A stretch of 63,618 nt of DNA, counting the filler, from Porpidia crustulata (Eukaryota): assembly GCA_964255105.1 (NCBI GenBank). It is 14 parts of 14 records of this genome, joined end to end, with 100 filler letters (N's around TTAATTAATTAA, not from the genome) between each part and the next. Parts side by side here need not be neighbours in the genome. Positions count along the whole stretch, not along the records: positions 1 to 4,478 come from CAXUWE010002070.1; 13 more parts are not named here. One strand, 5' to 3'. A program made the position numbers and the translations under genes. The notes beneath the pieces are model-generated. The model did not search any database and was not told the origin of the DNA. It saw only the letters and a list, made by a program, of their open reading frames with translations. Below are positions 1 through 9,527 of the stretch, in pieces (the first letter of the stretch is position 1; each line of letters starts with the position of its first letter).

Positions 1-1791
1 CTATTATAGGTCGTCATGATTTCCACTCAACATTTGCATTCCTTTCTCACGCGCGTCATTTAAGGTAAATTTTTCATAGATAAATAATACTTAAGACGAC
101 TTTTGTCGAACGCTTTATAAACTGTCGTGGTCCTGGGATTGGATTTTTGGCTTGAACTACTTTGATTTGTGCGGCGACGGATTGGTACTGCTGCAGGCAC
201 CGGAAAGATATAGATAATCAATGTTATTGGGTTGGGTTTGACTGCTGGCGCTGGGGTTGCTGAATGCCTATGCTGAGTCTGTCTATGCGGTTGGGATTTA
301 GGGAGCGGTTTAGATGGGTAGCGTCGCTGAAATGATTGAACTCCCATGTAGATCAAATAGGAACCGTGAGAAAAGATACTTCTTGAGGCGTGGACGGGTG
401 GGTATGATACACACACTAGCCCCAAGGCGCTCGTGCGTCCGTCACCAGGTGCATTGGTCAGCGATGTTCTTCTGAGGAGTACTGGTTGCACTTCCGTAGT
501 CCCAATTCGCTGGAAAAGTGAAGTCAGTTATTTTTGAGGCTACTGTATGATCACGAAGTGTTCAAACTCACGATTGATATCACTCGCGGGTCGGATGTGT
601 TCGAGGCGGGGAAGCCTCCACCAATCGTTACTCCTGCGTACGCGTTAGAATAACGTCGAGATACAGGTTCGGAAATCGATGATCCTACCTGTATTCATTA
701 CCTAGCAAATCTCTTTCCTTTGGGCACTCTCCGTTGAAGATAGTTTCCGGAGTAGTGCTTCTTTCAGGAAAAGATGCATGAGAGAAAATCCGACGTAGAC
801 CTTGTAGAGGTTAGTAATTCGTCCCTAGGCTCAAGGCTCAAGCGAGGTTACCTTAGGATGCTTCTTGTTCTGACCTGTTCTCTCATCTGAGACATCAGTA
901 GTGCCTGGAACGTCACTGCGAAGCCGTCAACGGTTTGGTAGTATTATGGAGAGGCAATATAGCTTACACGTCGACTATGTTTAATTGATCCCATGTGTAC
1001 CAATCATGCATACAATGCTTGTTGTAGATCGCGCCCTTTGTTGATATTAGCCTGTGCCGCCAGCTTCGTTAGGATGGTTGGACTACCGCGCGATGCCACC
1101 AATCTCCTTCAGAATCTTGCTGCCAAATCACCGATATACCTTCCCAGTCATGTCTGTGGCCCAGATGAGATAATACACCATCGTGCCTGATAGTTCATCA
1201 GTCACTAAGAAGTGCCAGGTATCAAGGCCGGGCCTTACACATAGTAATTGTAGTATTGAATTCGCCATTCTTTTTTGGAGCCGCACCAGCTGGCGCTCAC
1301 ATAAGTTGGGAATCGGTTTCCAAGACTGTATGCACCGTTCAATGGACCTGGGTCATTGCAGTTGGTTCCTGGATTGGCGTTGATGGGAACATCGGTGCCC
1401 GGATTTATACCACCAGAGCCAAGTGCAACGCCACTTTCTGAGTAGCAAGGTTGCTTGACGCGATCAGCTAATTGCGGAATCTATACGGAGGAAATGGTAC
1501 CGACGAACAAATTCCTTCTGAGTTGTGGAGAAGATCATTAAGCCACGGACGCCGATTGTACCTGGGCTCGGATACTTTTGGATAGATTTCCATAGACGTA
1601 TCCAATCACACTCGTATCTAATAAGGTAGGTATGCAGAAATCCGAGAATATCAATCACGTGATCCTGTGCACCGCCCACCTTACAAATAATCATCTGCAA
1701 GGCTCCGTTGTTCAGCCTTGTCAACCCAGATCGACAGAGATGTCTCTTTCGTCTACCATCACAGCAACGGAGCTGGGATGGACTTGGCCAT

Positions 1792-3704
1792 ATGGACCCT
1801 TTATCAGTTGTGGGTGCCGTCGGGGCAATTGTGGGCGCTGCTACACGAAGCATCAACTCGCTGTGCCAATTGCAGAAACAATGGAGCGGAATCGATCTGA
1901 CCGTCAGCCTTCTTGCTGGACAGCTGAGCTCCATCAACGCTGCGCTGAACCGAATTTTCGAGTGGATGTCGAGGAATCTTGAGACGATACCTCAACATCA
2001 TCAGCTCACCATTGATCTGGAAACTTCACTAGAGAGCTGCAGGGTTCTGATGCTGTTTCTAGAGGGTCACTTATCTCGTCTTGAATGGAACGATACTAAG
2101 ACGGTGCCTCTTAAGAATAAATTTGGAGCAGTACTGAAAGATCAGACTAGTACAGATTGTATGAATCGCTTACATGGTCAGACCACAGCTCTTAATTTTC
2201 TTCTCAGCGCACTCAATTGGTGAGAAGCCCGCTAGATCTACGAAATTTCCCTTTTGAGCATATGCTTACATGTACAGTCGCTCGATGTCAGATCAGAGAG
2301 AAATTATTCGAAGTAAGACAAGTCGGATTATCTTTGATCGGGTCAAGGATACTCATTCTCGCTCTTATTTCTGAAGGACTTGTCATCTTTTCAAAATCCA
2401 GTGACTGCATCGACCGAGTACTCATCGCTTCTTAACCGAATATTTAACTTGGATCATAAAGTTCTAAGGTTGAGAGATTACCAGGAGCAAGTAAGGACAA
2501 GGATGAGACGAGGACTTTGCCGGGAGAGGGATCTGCATGGATCATCTAGAAAAATCAAGGATCTAAGGAACTCATCTCTCGAGAGACAAATAAAGAGGGA
2601 AATGCTCTCAAATCGATACACTTTCAAGGTACTGCTAATTGAACCATTCGACAATGAACACTCTATAGGACTTGAAGCATTCGAGCTCGAGCATACACGG
2701 GCCATTGACGGCGATCTGCGGTTAATATACAAAAGCATCATCATATCTATCATTTATGAGGCGATACGTACCATACTGCAAGAGATGGCAGAGACGGCAT
2801 ACCTCATACTGGCAGATCCTAAATACCAGAGCTACACCCAGACACTCCCGGTGCAGCTGACCATCCTTAAGCCTAATTCTTTTCCCATAGAAGTCGCTAT
2901 TGCTATCGCTGCCTTGTGGGAGATTGAACCTGTGAAACAAGTCTATCATCGGTGTAAGGAAAAGATCTGGTGGCGCGAGAGTGACTAGTAGGTCAAGCAT
3001 GCTCTACAAATTTCAGTAGGACTCTAGTACGGTCAAAACTGAATAGCGAATTCTTACAGCTACCTTGACTCGGTAAGTCGAATTGCCAGACCAGATTATT
3101 TGCCCAACGACCAAGATATTGTGAAGCTCAAAGATAAGAAGCGTGGGCTTGAGGAGACCTTCATCAATGTTGTCATGATCGGCTTTCAAATCATAAAGCC
3201 TGACATATTATTATTCACCCGCCGAAAATTCCTTCCACTATTCCAAGATGTCGTGGCAGTTGTTTTCGTGGCGGATCTGTCCACTTACGATGAAAAAATA
3301 AACGAAATCTTCCCCTAGATGTCTCGCATACTCAACTGACCGAGAATTTTGCGCAACTCGAAAGAATCTCCAAATCTGTAAACTTAAGGGGTGCTAGAAT
3401 TATATTAGTACTGCACCGGCTTGAAGAATTTAGGGCGAAGCTTGCGACTAATCCACTTGACGAGCACTTCCCCGACTACGCCGGCGGCGCGAACTATGCC
3501 TCAGCTATAGCATATCTCTACCAGAGGCTTGTCTCAATAATTTCGTCCCCAAAGGAAATAATTTCGTCCCGAGAGGAAATAGTGATTCATCATTTTGCGT
3601 CTCAGGATCATCCGCTTCCACTCTCAGACGCGCTCATTGACACCATCAGTATTGAAACCCAGGGCGTTGGCTTGAATTTAGACAAAGGATACTCTGGCGA
3701 CTAG
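1792..3704 (+). pseudogene. HeLo-like (fungal STAND N-terminal) domain fused to a degenerate G-protein alpha-like domain; 2 introns, 2 frameshifts
   Basis: The N-terminus MDPLSVVGAVGAIVG...LAGQLSSINAALNRI is typical of Helo_like_N. The C-terminal part matches the G-alpha scaffold (YLDSVSRIARPDYLPNDQDI, VVFVADLSTYD, PLDEHFPDYAGGANYASAIAYL). Introns at 2220-2277 and about 2988-3059. Frame changes near 2350 and 3295. Confidence 0.8.
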
Positions 3705-4478
3705 GATTTGTTGAAACTTGAGGCCAAGACTGTTCGAATTCTTGGAACGGCGTTCTGTTCCTACTCATTGTGATATATATGCTATATCCTTACCATCAGC
3801 GCATGAATCGGTCCTTCAGTCTTTCCTTCTTATGACAAGCGCTGCAAGTGATGCACGACTTCCCGAAAGCCGTGCGGAATATACCAGCAAAACCGCAGAT
3901 CTACCTACGAGCTTCGCAATCTACATCGGAGGTTACATATATATAAATGCTTGCAGATGTGCTGAAGATACAGGTAGTTTGAACTTTCTGCAAAATAATC
4001 AGCAGTCCTGGACTAAATCTCCTGTATTGACCATCATAGAAGTATCCTCCAGGTTGTACCTACGACAACGTCTCTACTCAAAGAAAATTGGTTCTTGGCA
4101 AAATCAAGACCGTATCTACACCGACAGGATTGCAGCAAATAACACAATTCACTTACAGATAATATCATTCATAACACATGTTTCACACTCCAAATAACGC
4201 TTGTGCTCATACTTTCGAACTCGGACATTGGATTGCAGTCAATCTACGACTTCACCTTAATACAATAAAGTTCAATTGAAGAATTATTTCCATCACTCCG
4301 TTCAAGCAAAACCATCCCAAACGTCTCAACACAAACTCGCTTCCTTTTCAATTCGCATTCACTGAATCGACCCGACAGCGATGCGTTTGTCTTGAACACT
4401 AAGACCACGATGACCCCGTTCGTAAACGCTCGTCGCGGGACACTCAATCAAGAACAAGCCGCAAAACAGACTCCTTTC

Positions 4479-4578
4479 NNNNNNNNNNNNNNNNNNNNNN
4501 NNNNNNNNNNNNNNNNNNNNNNTTAATTAATTAANNNNNNNNNNNNNNNNNNNNNNNNNNNNNNNNNNNNNNNNNNNN
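4479..4578. other. Artificial contig spacer N44-TTAATTAATTAA-N44 (first of 13)
   Basis: Identical 100-nt linkers start at 4479, 9051, 13620, 18186, 22750, 27313, 31870, 36426, 40976, 45524, 50062, 54597 and 59116. Contig lengths fall monotonically from 4478 to 4403. Confidence 0.99.
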
Positions 4579-5022
4579 CTCATTAGATCAGATTTATGAT
4601 GATAGCTTCATGTAAATAGCTATTTAATGTTTTGGTGAGGCCTGGGTAGGGCTGACTCCACTGACTTATGGCACCCCCTGTGGATGATAGAAGGAAATGG
4701 CGGTCTCAACGTCTTCGAAAAGCTTAGCTCGCTTAGTCAGATGGCTAGCCCTGCAGGATTCTTTTCTCCGGCTCTCTAAGCTTTCGCCTCTAGTCACAGT
4801 CATCATTAAGAGAGTGTATTAGCGAGAAGCCATGAGAGCTGAGATGGCGTTGATACTGTCGCATAGTGCAGGTGCTATTGAAGCCATGACAATAAAAATA
4901 GCTAGGCCTGCGGAAGCAGTGCTGATGGAGTGGCGTACTGCATGGCATCGAGATGACCGCTCTCTCGAAGAAATACCGCCCCATCAACTATTTTCTTGAA
5001 ATTTTGCATTGTGACTGTTCCC

Positions 5023-8000
5023 ATGGATAATTCTTCGGCTGTTGAAGCAAGAGGCAAATCACTGTTTTCAATGGAAGATCAAGGTTCCACGGAGACGAGG
5101 TCTTTTGACACAAGTTTTGAATCTATTTCACATCTCGATACTTCAATCGAGATGAATTCTGAGAGCAGCCAAAATATCATAGAGATGCCTGATGAGAACT
5201 CCTACAAGCCGAGTATAGGGCGGTCCAATGCGATTGTTCAGGTTGATCAAAGTGGGAATTCAGACGGTGTCAATCGTGACGTGGATCAATCGAGGATGCA
5301 GTATCCGGTGGAAACCCAAGCAATAGCCTCACAGCAGTTGGATTCGGTGGGGAAAGGCGACTTGAGTCGACAGAATGGCGATGTCGGCATGTCTCGTTCG
5401 AGTCGTTCATCAGAACAGCATGTCTCGAATTATCAAAATGTCGACCCACCACATCATTCAAACCAAAATGCGGCAATGGGGACCACGGCTTTCTCTACAG
5501 AAAGGAAACTGACACCGAAGCCTGTGGTTAGTGCCGAAGCCCGATCGCGGTGGGCCATGTTATCTGCACTGGCCGGCGTTTCCAAGACAGATGAGGTGGC
5601 GGAAACGGAAGGGAGCAATGAAGCTTCGGCCCAACACCAGCAATTCACCTCCAATTCGGATTACGAGGTCGACGAAGAGCGGACACTGGAGAACCGAACC
5701 ACCGAAGAGAATACAGCAACTACGTCACGACAGTCCACATATACCAGAATGTCCGGTGGATTATCTAGTGTCGTCAACAATGAAATCGGATCTCAAACTC
5801 GTGATGAAGCACAAGAGGCAGAAGATTCCGCAGAAAGTGTATCGAATATGGAGAAATATTTGCAAAATCTTGGAAATGATCCTCGGATTGATAGCCGTGG
5901 CCTACGGCAAGGCCTTCAATCATTCAGCCGCGATAAGGAACATGATACCCAAAGCAACCAACATGTGGTAAACGAAGGCCTAAGTAGCCGAGCTGACAAC
6001 ATTGATACGGTGGCTTCAAACGAAATTTATGGTGGCAAAGAAAGAATTGTAAATCAAGCTCGAGACGTGATCCATAGCTTTCAGGAGGAAGGTGATGATC
6101 GGTTGATTAATCTCAATTCTGAAAGCCGCAATACTGCTGAGATCATCGATCGAGGTGGAAAACAATCCGAGGACGAAAGCCGGACCGGTCGCCGCTTCCT
6201 TGAGACCAGCTTGCGGAGCAATGTCCAACATCTTGAAGATGATCTCAGGAGTGGTAAAGATCTGGTGGAGCAGACGTTCAAACATGAGGACCTTACTCTT
6301 GACAATAACTACGAAGATGGTCGTCGTAAATCGAGAGCAGAAGGAGAGTCCATAGATTATGATGGACAAAGGATTAAGACTGGGATAGAAAGCCTGGAGG
6401 GTGAAATCTCGTCTTCAAGTCACAATTTAGAAAGAAGCATTCATGCTGGTCGAAATGATCTGGAGGGGGATTATAAGTCCGGGAAGACTGTCGTCGAAAA
6501 GGAGATCATTGCGGGTACCAAAGCCCTTGAGGGAGTTTTTGAGACTGGTGAGCGTGCTGTTGAGCGGGGATTTCATTCTAGCGACCAGGATTTGGAAAAT
6601 ATTCTACAATCTGGAGAGAAGATGGTGGAGATTGGAGTTCAAGCCGGCAAGAGAGTGGTAGAAGAACTTGGTAGCAGTGACATCTCCGGAGAGTTCCGAA
6701 GAGGCGAACAAGCCTTGAAGGACGATTTAAAGATAGGCTCTCGGGAGATCAAAGGAGCGTTCGAAAGCCCAGGCCTACAAGGACTAATAAACAGAGGTGA
6801 GTATGACCTTAAAAATGGCCTTCTTTCAGGAGTGCAAGAGGTGGAACGAGTATTCGAAGCGACGATGTCGCAAGACCTACGACACGAAAAACACAAACTA
6901 GAACAAAGTCTTCTGTCAGAGTCTCGTAAACTTGAACATACCTTAGGCCGGAAGATCTCACAAGACACGCATGGATTCAAAGGACGGCTTGAAGAAGACG
7001 TTCGAAGAGTAGAGTCAACCTTCCGAGCCCCTGGCGGTCGCATGCTAGACGAGAACGCGCATGCAGGCTCTAGGAGGCTCGGCGGATCAGCGGATACTCG
7101 CAGTACCACGCAACATAAACTTCAAGGACACAATTTCGGGCACACATCAAGCAACGATCCTTCGAGTAGATCAGATGCAGCAGGAAAACAGTCTAAGGTC
7201 CCTCCACCGGGTAACTCGATGGGAATGCCATCACAAGCCCATCTAAGTCATACTCTTGCAGGCACTGGTCAAGACAACATGCCTCCCGTACATCAATTAG
7301 GACCCAGTACTCTAATCAGGCCTGGAATGATGCAAGGCGGGACGGCCTCAAATGGGCGTTTGCATGATCCGATCTCCAGCCGACCAGCTCCAAGCTCACA
7401 TACATCTGGCGGTCCCTCCTCCAACAGTAGACCTACTGAGCAAAAAACTCATCTTCAAGATGGGCCTGTCGGCAATCATCGATTGTCCATAGTACCGCAC
7501 ACCAGTGGATTACGTGGTCCGCCACAACAGGCTCAGAGAGATTGGCCTCATCAACCAAGCCAGAGCAATGTACATACACCAAAACTTGGAGATTCCAAAC
7601 CAATCAACTCAAGTAATCACGTTCGCCCTTCAATCCCACAGCAAACACAGCAAGTTTTACAGCACCCGCAGTCAAACATGCAACAAGACCGGCCCAGACC
7701 TAGTGTGAATCCACTTCCTGCGGATGTAAGAGCTCAAAACAGACCACAAACGCACCACCAACCCCAGCCGATAAACATGGACCACAGAGACCCAGGAAAT
7801 CGGCAACAACCAAAGCAACAGACACACCAACAGCAGCCAATCACAAGTACACAACACAATGCCTCTGGCCTTGTTGCTAACCGAGGGCCCGCGAGTGCTC
7901 TGCCGCAAGCTGGGCGGTCTCAGAATCAACCTCTCCATCCACAAGGTGGACCTCAAAGACCGCTAGGAAATCATTCGATTCCACCAAACACTTCTCAGAA

Positions 8001-9050
8001 AGAGCAACGTCTTGTACCTCCTCGGGGGAATGGTGCTCAGACTGGAGTACATCAGCCTTTAGGCAAAGCCAACTCCGCTGTGGATACTATAAACAAACCC
8101 CAGCATCAACAGGGTTCGGCGTCGTGCTCCCATGACGGGCATGAGCCAAATTCGTGCCCTCATATGGCCAACGCGCAAGATTACACCCACCGGCCTCACA
8201 CTCCTCGAAATTACCCTCATCAAGGTAGCAACGTGCAAAAAGAAGAACAGGTATGCACTCACCAGGGACATAGCGATACCTTATGTCCCCATGCGCAGAA
8301 AGCAAGATCTTGCAATCATAGCGGGCACGAAGCGCATTCGTGTCCTCATGAGACGAATGCCCAAATATGCAGCCACAGGCCGCACAAAGCTGAGCAATGT
8401 CCACACAATGCGATAGAGCCAAAGTCATGCACTCACCAGGACCATGAGGCTGCTTCATGCCCCTACATTGCTACTAGCAACGCTTCGACTTCCCAAGGCA
8501 AGATTTCACCCCAATTGAACTCACAGCAGCGCACAAGTCAGCAGTATGGCCTACGTCAGGAACAAGCCGGCATGCAACCGCCTATGCCAGTTCAGCAGCT
8601 CAATGGAAATTCAGATCAGATGCAGCGCCAGCAATCACAACAGATTGAGCAACGAAACGGTTTCCAGCAAGAATCAAGCTCCCAGCAACACCAAAAATCC
8701 GAGCAACGAACTGATTCCCAGCAACAATCAAGCTCCCGGCAACACCGACAATCCGAGCAGCGAACCATAGTACAGCAGCAAAACACCCTCGAGCAAAAGA
8801 GCTCTTACAAACATGACGCGGATATGCATTCCCAAAGCCAGACCGGTTTCCAGCAGGATTCCGAATACCAAGAAACTTCATCCCACGAGCATACAAGCTA
8901 CGAAGAGCACTCCACCTCCTCGCAGGAAACATCATCCACCTACTCCCACCCAGCCTCCGATTCCTCAGCCCCTGCATACAACCCCTTTCAACACCTCCTC
9001 ACCGCATTCACGTCCCAACACCAAGCCACCGCCTCCGCGAACCCTGGCTT
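5023..9050 (+). CDS. Large low-complexity repeat protein (amphipathic 11/22-mer repeats, Q/P/H-rich tracts, Cys/His repeats); 3' truncated
   Basis: Uninterrupted ORF of more than 4 kb running into the contig end, with internal repeats visible in the translation. Confidence 0.85.
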
Positions 9051-9527
9051 NNNNNNNNNNNNNNNNNNNNNNNNNNNNNNNNNNNNNNNNNNNNTTAATT
9101 AATTAANNNNNNNNNNNNNNNNNNNNNNNNNNNNNNNNNNNNNNNNNNNNATGCTAGGTTAGGCTAGAGGCGCGTTAGTTGAGCATTGGGAGAGTTGAAG
9201 AAGGGGTGGGACGTACGGGTTATGAAGATTGGGAGTATGGCTTTGTTGTATAAGAGGTATATAGTGTAGAAGCTGTTTGGATTGAAAAGAGGAACGACGG
9301 TGACCTTTAAACATGAGATGAGGAAGGAGGGGATCGTCCCATCCTTACCTCGGGAGCTTGCGTTCCAGAACCGGTTTGCGCTAAGCAAGGATTACGTTGG
9401 TGTGGCGCCCTAGAGAACATAGCTTAGTCGTAGAGCGGCTAAGGTGCTATTCTTATCCAATGAAAACAAGTCTTGTATCTGAGCCTACCGACTCATTCAA
9501 ACACATGGATGAATCGACCAAAGATCG

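What the first reader, a model, noticed from the sequence alone, without database searches (positions are those of the whole stretch)
1792..3704. HeLo-like domain fused to a catalytically dead G-alpha: candidate decoy/cell-death module
Seen: the spliced model joins a Helo_like_N-type N-terminus to a G-alpha-like domain. Structural residues are kept (RIARPDYLPNDQD, FVADLSTYD, FPDYAGG) but every nucleotide motif is changed: G1 GAGESGKS reads EPFDNEHS, switch I RSRVKTTG reads KLKDKKRG, G3 DVGGQ is absent, G4 NKxD reads HRLE, G5 TCA reads ASQ. Known: HeLo/HeLo-like domains are membrane-damaging effectors of fungal NLR and HET-S systems, and G-alpha proteins are targets of pathogen toxins. Inference: a G-alpha pseudo-GTPase could act as an integrated decoy or sensor coupled to a death effector, an architecture I do not know to have been characterised functionally.
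Basis: partly seen in the sequence, partly recalled or inferred. Interest (0 to 1): 0.75.

Follow-up and report, generated by a model that had tools for sequence, protein, structure and literature searches.

The report
Broken helical-bundle/dead G-alpha fusion gene
This is a broken copy of a fungal gene that joins a helix bundle resembling cell-death proteins to a G-protein alpha subunit that has lost its GTP-handling residues; intact relatives exist in many fungi and may act as alarm switches, but that role is untested.

Summary
In detail: a three-exon gene joins a PF17111 (HeLo-like)-type four-helix bundle, a conserved helical connector and a G-alpha fold with G1-G5 replaced. This copy is a pseudogene: two frameshifts, a stop after 174 codons, a rare deletion in helix 1. 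The motif loss is not decay, though. An intact 576-codon orthologue (L036) has the same introns and the same replaced motifs, and dN/dS is 0.20 (bundle) and 0.47 (G-alpha). The gene belongs to a family found across filamentous ascomycetes; this genome has two more members that largely keep the P-loop. Fused G-alpha domains are not one clade (AU p=3e-6) and sit nearest all three fungal G-alpha classes; 4 of 39 keep the catalytic Gln. A relative's N-module is modelled as a tetramer (ipSAE 0.80, best control 0.00; model only). MLKL likeness is compatible but not distinctive. A decoy for classic G-alpha-modifying toxins is unlikely, since their acceptor residues are gone. Best guess: an MLKL-like bundle-brace-pseudoenzyme switch (about 0.45). 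I found no paper on the fusion; A. flavus GaoC may be a member (untested). This scan found the same family before on another genome (e1-7680386).

The parts
1792..2219 (+). Exon 1: PF17111 (HeLo-like)-type four-helix bundle, 143 aa, no stop; helix 1 has a 3-residue in-frame deletion against the family
   Evidence: shortened helix 1 in 2 of 55 rows; 47 of 55 have the standard length
2220..2277 (+). Intron 1 (58 nt), same position and length as in intact orthologue L036
2278..2520 (+). Conserved helical connector ('brace-like' helices and F.FD..L..S..Y motif); part of the N-module, also found in ankyrin-repeat fusions
2350..2352 (+). Frameshift 1 (1-nt gap against L036); the shifted frame stops at 2372-2374, giving a 174-aa product
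2578..2601 (+). G-alpha alpha-N helix remnant (LERQIKRE; ENQLKRD in L036, as in the genome's class I G-alpha)
2641..2664 (+). Replaced G1/P-loop (EPFDNEHS; EPPDGEQS in intact L036)
2988..3059 (+). Intron 2 (72 nt; 73 nt in L036), same position as in L036
3124..3213 (+). Replaced switch I (KLKDKKRG) and G3 (KPDILL); NSKGKQCG and KPDQEI in L036
3294..3296 (+). Frameshift 2 (1-nt gap against L036, next to an A-run)
3414..3605 (+). Replaced G4 (HRLE, identical in L036) and G5 (ASQ); includes a 21-nt local duplication absent from L036
3702..3704 (+). Stop codon of exon 3

Best explanation
The window holds a pseudogene of a fungal family built as four-helix bundle + helical connector + captured G-alpha domain. 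Shown: the copy is broken; its subclade lost all G motifs before it broke and kept the fold under selection; the N-module took up G-alpha domains more than once and also occurs with ankyrin, PBD and PH domains. Inferred: intact members work like MLKL (bundle, brace, pseudo-enzyme). The G-alpha-like domain is a binding sensor for something that engages G-protein signalling (G-beta-gamma, a receptor or regulator, or a microbial factor aimed at them). Engagement lets the N-module oligomerise through helices 2-4 and frees hydrophobic helix 1 to enter the membrane and kill or arrest the cell. Odds: pseudogene about 0.9; inherited pseudo-GTPase about 0.95; death-switch mechanism about 0.45.
For: Intact orthologue L036 with the same introns and replaced motifs. 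dN/dS window vs L036: bundle 0.20 (CI 0.12-0.31), G-alpha 0.47 (0.34-0.65). AlphaFold: four long helices plus a short helix between 3 and 4, pLDDT 82.8, the layout reported for HeLo-likes and MLKL (PMC9815663, passages). PF17111 in 45 of 68 aligned N-domains at E<=0.05; Atlas top hit a PF17111 cluster at 0.95, family on 39% of members. MLKL 4btf Z 11.5, rmsd 2.3, 100 aligned. Hydrophobic helix 1: family median Kyte-Doolittle 19-mer 1.76. N-module of relative P0005 as four copies: ipSAE 0.80, best of 3 controls 0.00; runs agree in at least 56% of contacts; pLDDT at least 64; confident contacts lie in helices 2-4 and the connector start, none in helix 1. The tool's mark was reached by 21 of 30 solved homo-pairs and 0 of 23 monomers (eukaryotes 17 of 29 and 0 of 30; only 1 of 7 without an older solved relative). 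Fused G-alpha not monophyletic, AU p=3.3e-6. Independent loss in L033-L035, as expected of fast-turnover defence genes. G-alpha signalling is linked to fungal incompatibility death (PMC5363999, PMC1325252, passages).
Against: No toxicity, expression or binding data. The MLKL match ties with or trails unrelated bundles (IncA Z 12.4, HHM 12.2, Sla2 12.1), and the tool warns that Z under about 13 is common for bundles. Foldseek gave nothing at E<=0.001. The window's PF17111 score is below the cut-off. The oligomer result is a model for a relative, with four copies, outside the tool's calibration, and scaffold bundles also oligomerise. No NLR or amyloid-motif partner was seen beside the gene. Constraint on the G-alpha part is weak (C-terminal half dN/dS 0.63, CI 0.40-0.96; L036-branch G-alpha 8 synonymous vs 11 non-synonymous changes, p=0.11). 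Loss of the catalytic Gln is not unique: five other invariant positions are lost about as often, and 17 of the 19 P-loop-intact rows come from one clade.
Confidence: 0.45

Rival explanations
1. Non-lethal signalling modulators. The bundle is an oligomerisation and membrane-anchoring scaffold in place of the lipidated G-alpha N-terminus; the G-alpha domain soaks up G-beta-gamma or mimics the GTP-bound state and so tunes G-protein signalling.
For: alpha-N is well kept in the window clade. P-loop-intact members keep nucleotide-binding residues (G4 Asp 18 of 18, G4 Lys 16 of 18) but mostly lack the catalytic Gln (2 of 18), like GTPase-deficient alleles. Other partners of the module include signalling domains PBD, PH and LIM. 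The fold match does not single out death domains.
Against: Repeated capture, fast divergence and independent pseudogenisation are unusual for core regulators. Switch II is degenerate in the window clade. PF17111 domains are described as pore-forming effectors (PMC9815663, passages).
Confidence: 0.3
2. Allorecognition or selfish locus (het-like or killer-like): divergent G-alpha copies act as allele-specific recognition surfaces, and the bundle kills on mismatch.
For: Intact and broken alleles occur at the same RFC-flanked locus in close relatives (L036 vs L035). G-alpha MOD-D modifies incompatibility in Podospora (cited in PMC1325252 and PMC5363999).
Against: dN/dS is below 1 throughout; no balanced allelic classes seen; no population data examined.
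Confidence: 0.12
3. Integrated decoy for enzymes that modify G-alpha at the classic sites.
For: Capture of all three G-alpha classes resembles integrated domains. P-loop-intact members keep the switch I Arg in 11 of 19.
Against: In the window clade the switch I Arg, the switch II Gln and the C-terminal Cys (acceptor sites, recalled) are all absent, also in intact L036. No fungus-directed enzyme of this type turned up in the searches.
Confidence: 0.08
4. The window gene is intact in the organism and the two frameshifts are assembly errors.
For: Low depth (12.5); break 2 lies next to an A-run; no independent reads.
Against: A separately assembled public contig has identical letters (probably the same reads). 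The window branch is accelerated against L036 (connector 13-19 vs 2-4 unique changes, p 0.001-0.05; C-terminal half 52 vs 13 with outgroup P0055) and carries a rare helix-1 deletion.
Confidence: 0.05

Closest known systems
Fungal HeLo-like (PF17111, now named PigL_N) effector domains of NLRs and amyloid-coupled effectors
   Same: Weak to moderate PF17111 match (45 of 68 members), four-helix bundle with a short helix between helices 3 and 4, hydrophobic helix 1.
   Different: No NACHT/NB-ARC domain and no amyloid motif seen; followed by a conserved connector and a G-alpha fold; toxicity untested.
MLKL (animal, plant) bundle-brace-pseudokinase executioners (architecture recalled; 4btf, 6ux8, 6ka4 among fold hits)
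   Same: Bundle, extra helices, then a catalytically dead enzyme fold; predicted oligomer.
   Different: Pseudo-GTPase instead of pseudokinase; no sequence-level match; fold score not above unrelated bundles.
Aspergillus flavus/oryzae GaoC, the fourth G-alpha (PMC5869405, PMC13267034)
   Same: Extra fungal G-alpha with altered P-loop and Gln-to-Ser in DxxGQ, predicted inactive; listed at 690 aa, within the size range of this family; function unknown.
   Different: The paper reports only a G-alpha domain. Its sequence could not be fetched here, so membership is a lead, not a result.
Canonical fungal G-alpha classes I-III
   Same: G-alpha fold (Foldseek E 8.5e-17 for a relative's model); window clade scores best against class I (L036: 207 vs 135 and 121 bits).
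   Different: All G motifs replaced; N-terminal lipidation segment replaced by the bundle; long branches.
Plant extra-large G proteins (XLG; search listing only, PMC13185490)
   Same: G-alpha domain with a long N-terminal extension.
   Different: A plant-specific family; its extension was not compared here.

Membership tests
HeLo-like (PF17111) domain | Profile match to PF17111 above the curated cut-off | tested here: inconclusive
   Window 20.4 bits vs cut-off 27.2; 45 of 68 relatives match at E<=0.05, best 8.9e-9; P0133 and P0140 pass the cut-off.
HeLo-like (PF17111) domain | Four-helix bundle with a short helix between helices 3 and 4 | tested here: met
   H3-30, H36-62, H70-99, H107-115, H118-142; pLDDT 82.8; feature as described in PMC9815663.
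HeLo/MLKL death effectors | Structure distinctly closer to MLKL/HeLo than to unrelated bundles | tested here: inconclusive
   MLKL Z 11.5, rmsd 2.3, 100 aligned; IncA 12.4, HHM 12.2.
HeLo/MLKL death effectors | Hydrophobic N-terminal helix | tested here: met
   Family median 1.76; L036 1.87; window copy 1.43 with a 3-residue deletion.
HeLo/MLKL death effectors | Homo-oligomerisation of the effector module | tested here: inconclusive
   Model of relative P0005 1-230 x4 passes the tool's mark (0.80 vs best control 0.00; at least 56% contact agreement; pLDDT at least 64); prediction only, outside calibration, not the window's protein.
HeLo/MLKL death effectors | Membrane damage and cell death on activation | not testable with these tools
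   Needs expression assays.
Fungal NLR / amyloid-coupled effector systems | NACHT or NB-ARC domain, or an amyloid motif with an adjacent NLR gene | tested here: not met
   No such Pfam match in the gene; 4478-nt contig shows no NLR neighbour; L036 neighbours are RFC and Rce1. Amyloid motifs were not scanned with a dedicated model.
G-alpha subunit (PF00503) | G-alpha fold: Ras-like plus helical domain | tested here: met
   PF00503 on three pieces; relative's model matches Gi structures.
G-alpha subunit (PF00503) | G1-G5 nucleotide motifs, catalytic Arg and Gln | tested here: not met
   All replaced in the window copy and in intact L036.
G-alpha subunit (PF00503) | Binds G-beta-gamma or a receptor | not tested
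   alpha-N kept, switch II degenerate (contact sites recalled).
GaoC (Aspergillus fourth G-alpha) | Sequence homology including the N-terminal module | not tested
   Only length (690 aa) and motif changes were read from papers.

The most novel reading that the evidence does not exclude
Filamentous ascomycetes carry an undescribed class of one-piece immune or death switches in which an MLKL-like oligomerising module has repeatedly captured G-alpha subunits of all three classes and turned them first into hydrolysis-dead, then into nucleotide-free sensors that guard G-protein signalling: a pseudo-GTPase counterpart of the MLKL pseudokinase, with the long-unexplained 'fourth G-alpha' GaoC as a member.
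Probability: 0.3. Interest if true: 0.85.

Novelty: new variant of a known kind. Interest (0 to 1): 0.58.

Why it matters
It would explain the extra, inactive-looking G-alpha genes that fungal genome papers set aside as dysfunctional, and would extend the executioner-plus-pseudo-enzyme design from kinases to GTPases. An apparently intact member exists in Podospora, the model fungus for HeLo biology, so the idea can be tested directly. The window copy itself is a dead gene and matters only as a pointer to the family.

Tried and rejected
Word-based homologue search with the X-read frame found nothing among 7999 scored candidates. A search with P0055 for longer proteins gave 6 stand-alone G-alphas. 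No RNA holder was listed for the stretch; runs X2 and X3 laid nothing. One search used an off-by-one splice of L036 and its numbers were discarded; one search is the corrected run. A sequence search of the PDB with the N-domain profile gave only weak hits (best E 0.017, SMG1). HET-s HeLo was not among the listed fold hits and Pfam HeLo was not among the 24 families listed; neither excludes a relation. The idea that the 174-aa truncated product is a repurposed free bundle is not supported: the bundle is also faster on the window branch (17-25 vs 9-13 unique changes; significant with 1 of 6 outgroups) and helix 1 is shortened. RIP-like decay is not indicated: the gene's dinucleotide indices match the window average. 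The split Podospora anserina annotation (354 + 199 aa) was not counted as a pseudogene, since the 354-aa form looks like an intron run-on. Specific selection against the catalytic Gln could not be shown. Literature: no paper held both 'HeLo-like' and 'G-alpha' or 'G protein alpha'; the listings for Helo_like_N (6 papers), PF17111 (7 papers) and five further searches showed no title on such a fusion; one search was for MOD-D. The library lacks most subscription journals, and no supplements were read.

Full report
Observation. The stretch is a three-exon gene on the + strand: exons 1792-2219, 2278-2987 and 3060-3704, with GT..AG introns of 58 and 72 nt. Exon 1 matches PF17111 weakly (E 3.6e-4, below the cut-off) and three later pieces match G-alpha PF00503. 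PF17111 is now named PigL_N; PMC9815663 (passages) calls it HeLo-like. The window is a chain of contigs with N-linkers; 1-4478 is contig C2070 of G000, so nothing beyond 4478 is a true neighbour.

This copy is broken. The plain spliced frame stops after 174 residues. Against an intact orthologue there are two 1-nt gaps, near 2351 and 3295. Helix 1 lacks three residues: 2 of 55 family rows have this shortened length and 47 of 55 the standard one. Relative-rate counts show more window-specific than L036-specific changes in all 25 comparisons, significant for the connector with 5 of 5 outgroups, for the C-terminal half with 2 of 4 and for the bundle with 1 of 6. A public contig is identical, but it is probably the source.

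The motif loss is inherited. One metagenome scan gave 4 loci. L036 (JAABUI010000062.1) splices to an open 576-codon frame with the same intron positions and G1 EPPDGEQS, switch I NSKGKQCG, G3 KPDQEI and G4 HRLE. Fragments P0043 and P0055 share these. Nei-Gojobori dN/dS of window vs L036 (1000 bootstraps): whole gene 0.39; bundle 0.20 (0.12-0.31); connector 0.39 (0.18-0.77); G-alpha 0.47 (0.34-0.65), with 0.33 for its first half and 0.63 (0.40-0.96) for its second. These averages include the relaxed window branch. On the L036 branch alone there are 13 synonymous and 17 non-synonymous changes (p=0.036 against a rough neutral share of 0.27); for the G-alpha part alone 8 and 11 (p=0.11). The other 3 of 4 loci (L033-L035, 92% identical to L036) are broken by different lesions that they share: a stop at codon 4, a 113-nt deletion and two frameshifting insertions. 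That makes one further loss, independent of the window's.

The family. phmmer over 1.84 billion representatives gave 1128 hits at E<=0.001; the best 150 were listed. Of these 150, 45 have bundle, connector and G-alpha, and 73 are bundle-only, mostly short enough to be single exons. Of the 43 with bundle and connector and at least 450 aa, 38 have G-alpha. Pfam on 67 of the 150 found PF00503 in 53 (two of them stand-alone G-alphas), PBD in 2 and PH in 1. Of 30 proteins looked up, the named ones include Lecanora, Varicellaria, Xylographa, Bacidia, Podospora, Xylaria, Pestalotiopsis, Monosporascus, Fusarium, Corynespora, Pyrenochaeta and Stromatinia, labelled automatically as G-alpha or hypothetical. 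The nearest named ones are lichen fungi (my knowledge), which suggests but does not show what the host is. A 603-aa Podospora protein on Logan contigs of at most 2786 nt implies one spliced transcript (inference). G000 has three canonical G-alphas (C1229, C395, C1990) and three fusions (C2070, C256, C200). The same module with its connector also leads ankyrin-repeat proteins (8 hits among 8000 scored candidates, 5 with ankyrin repeats).

Repeated capture. In a quick tree of 52 G-alpha domains, 8 fused domains join canonical class III (SH-aLRT 98), C200 joins class II (98), and the rest, the window clade included, lie on the class I side (92, not starred). In a careful tree of 28 rows (24 left out, mainly long branches and near-duplicates, chosen after seeing the first tree) C200 with class II holds at 99/99, the class I and III groupings fall below 80, and monophyly of the 19 fused rows is rejected (p-AU 3.3e-6). 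Two of the 19, P0055 and P0014, are partial, so their fusion is inferred. BLAST scores agree: L036 207/135/121 bits against classes I/II/III, C200 145/242/112, P0054 257/227/390. At least two captures are therefore likely, and three are plausible.

Motif pattern. Among 41 fused rows, 19 of the 39 that cover it keep GK[ST]. In those 19 the G4 Asp is kept in 18 of 18, the G3 Asp in 16 of 19, the catalytic Gln in 2 of 18 and the G4 Asn in 1 of 18. Over all fused rows the Gln is kept in 4 of 39. This fits a path from hydrolysis-dead to nucleotide-free. Against over-reading it: 17 of the 19 come from one clade, and five other invariant positions are lost about as often. In the window clade the alpha-N helix stays close to class I (ENQLKRD in L036), while the switch I Arg, switch II Gln and C-terminal Cys, which classic G-alpha-modifying toxins attack (recalled), are gone. 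That argues against a decoy for such enzymes.

Structure. AlphaFold on exon 1 with 68 sequences gives four long helices and a short helix between the third and fourth, pLDDT 82.8. The wide fold search lists IncA (Z 12.4), HHM (12.2), Sla2 (12.1), MLKL (11.5, rmsd 2.3, 100 aligned), Rx-CC (10.0) and NRG1 CC-R (9.5): compatible with a death bundle, not diagnostic. The full-length Lecanora protein P0005 folds as bundle, further helices, flexible linker and G-alpha (pLDDT 78.2, pTM 0.55). Four copies of P0005 1-230 scored ipSAE 0.80 against a best control of 0.00, with at least 56% contact agreement and pLDDT at least 64; the alignment was not used. The mark was met by 21 of 30 solved homo-pairs and 0 of 23 monomers (eukaryotes 17 of 29 and 0 of 30; 1 of 7 without an older solved relative), and a four-copy job lies outside that calibration, so the pass may reflect likeness to solved bundles. 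The confident contacts fall on residues 50-61 and 134-143, the two best-conserved stretches of the family consensus; helix 1 is not named, which the tool says is no evidence that it does not touch.

Mechanism. I rank an MLKL-like switch first (0.45): a sensor G-alpha fold controls an oligomerising module whose first helix attacks the membrane. Architecture, selection and turnover are shown; oligomerisation is predicted; sensing and killing are inferred. A non-lethal G-protein modulator is the main rival (0.3). G-alpha is tied to fungal incompatibility death (PMC5363999 and PMC1325252, passages; the MOD-D paper was seen only as a citation), which makes a guard role plausible without showing it.

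What is known. Ten searches of the library found no description of this fusion. In PMC9815663 the terms GTPase, G-alpha and G protein do not occur in the main text (passages read, supplements not). A. flavus GaoC has an altered P-loop and Gln-to-Ser, was judged inactive and was left unstudied (PMC5869405, passages and section 2.1); a review table lists it at 690 aa, function unknown (PMC13267034, passages). It may be a member; I could not test that. PMC12941744 (passages) had nothing relevant.

Verdict. A real feature and a dead copy, pointing to an apparently undescribed family with a testable hypothesis. New variant of a known kind; interest 0.58.

Noticed in passing
window, every ~4.55 kb (4479-4578, 9051-9150 and so on): The window is a chain of separate contigs joined by N-runs around TTAATTAATTAA (13 linkers); gene order across linkers means nothing.
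   Followed up: yes
L031 (G000:C256) 329-2701, minus strand: Second bundle-connector-G-alpha gene with P-loop and switch I intact but G3 Gln replaced by Val; lies beside a histone H3-type gene (PF00125).
   Followed up: partly
L032 (G000:C200) 431-2935, minus strand: Third fusion, with a more distant bundle and a class II-derived G-alpha.
   Followed up: partly
L019-L030 (G000): At least 12 PF17111 matches in the genome; some are followed by NACHT-like (by eye) or LIM domains, several by the F.FD.DL..S..Y motif.
   Followed up: partly
P0145 (Coprinopsis): A stand-alone 352-aa G-alpha with degenerate G1 and G3 and no bundle: degenerate G-alphas also exist unfused.
   Followed up: no
P0189-P0195: The same module leads ankyrin-repeat proteins in Rutstroemia, Sclerotinia, Aspergillus, Talaromyces and Gyalolechia; in P0189 it follows a PNP_UDP domain in one frame, possibly two adjacent genes read through.
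   Followed up: partly
L033 2030-2695, minus strand: A transposase-like ORF (by eye; no Pfam hit at E<=0.01) lies upstream of the broken copy in L033, where L035 has the RFC gene.
   Followed up: no
window 4957-9102: A 1381-codon low-complexity, Gln/His-rich open frame with short Cys-His repeats on the next contig; unrelated to this finding.
   Followed up: no
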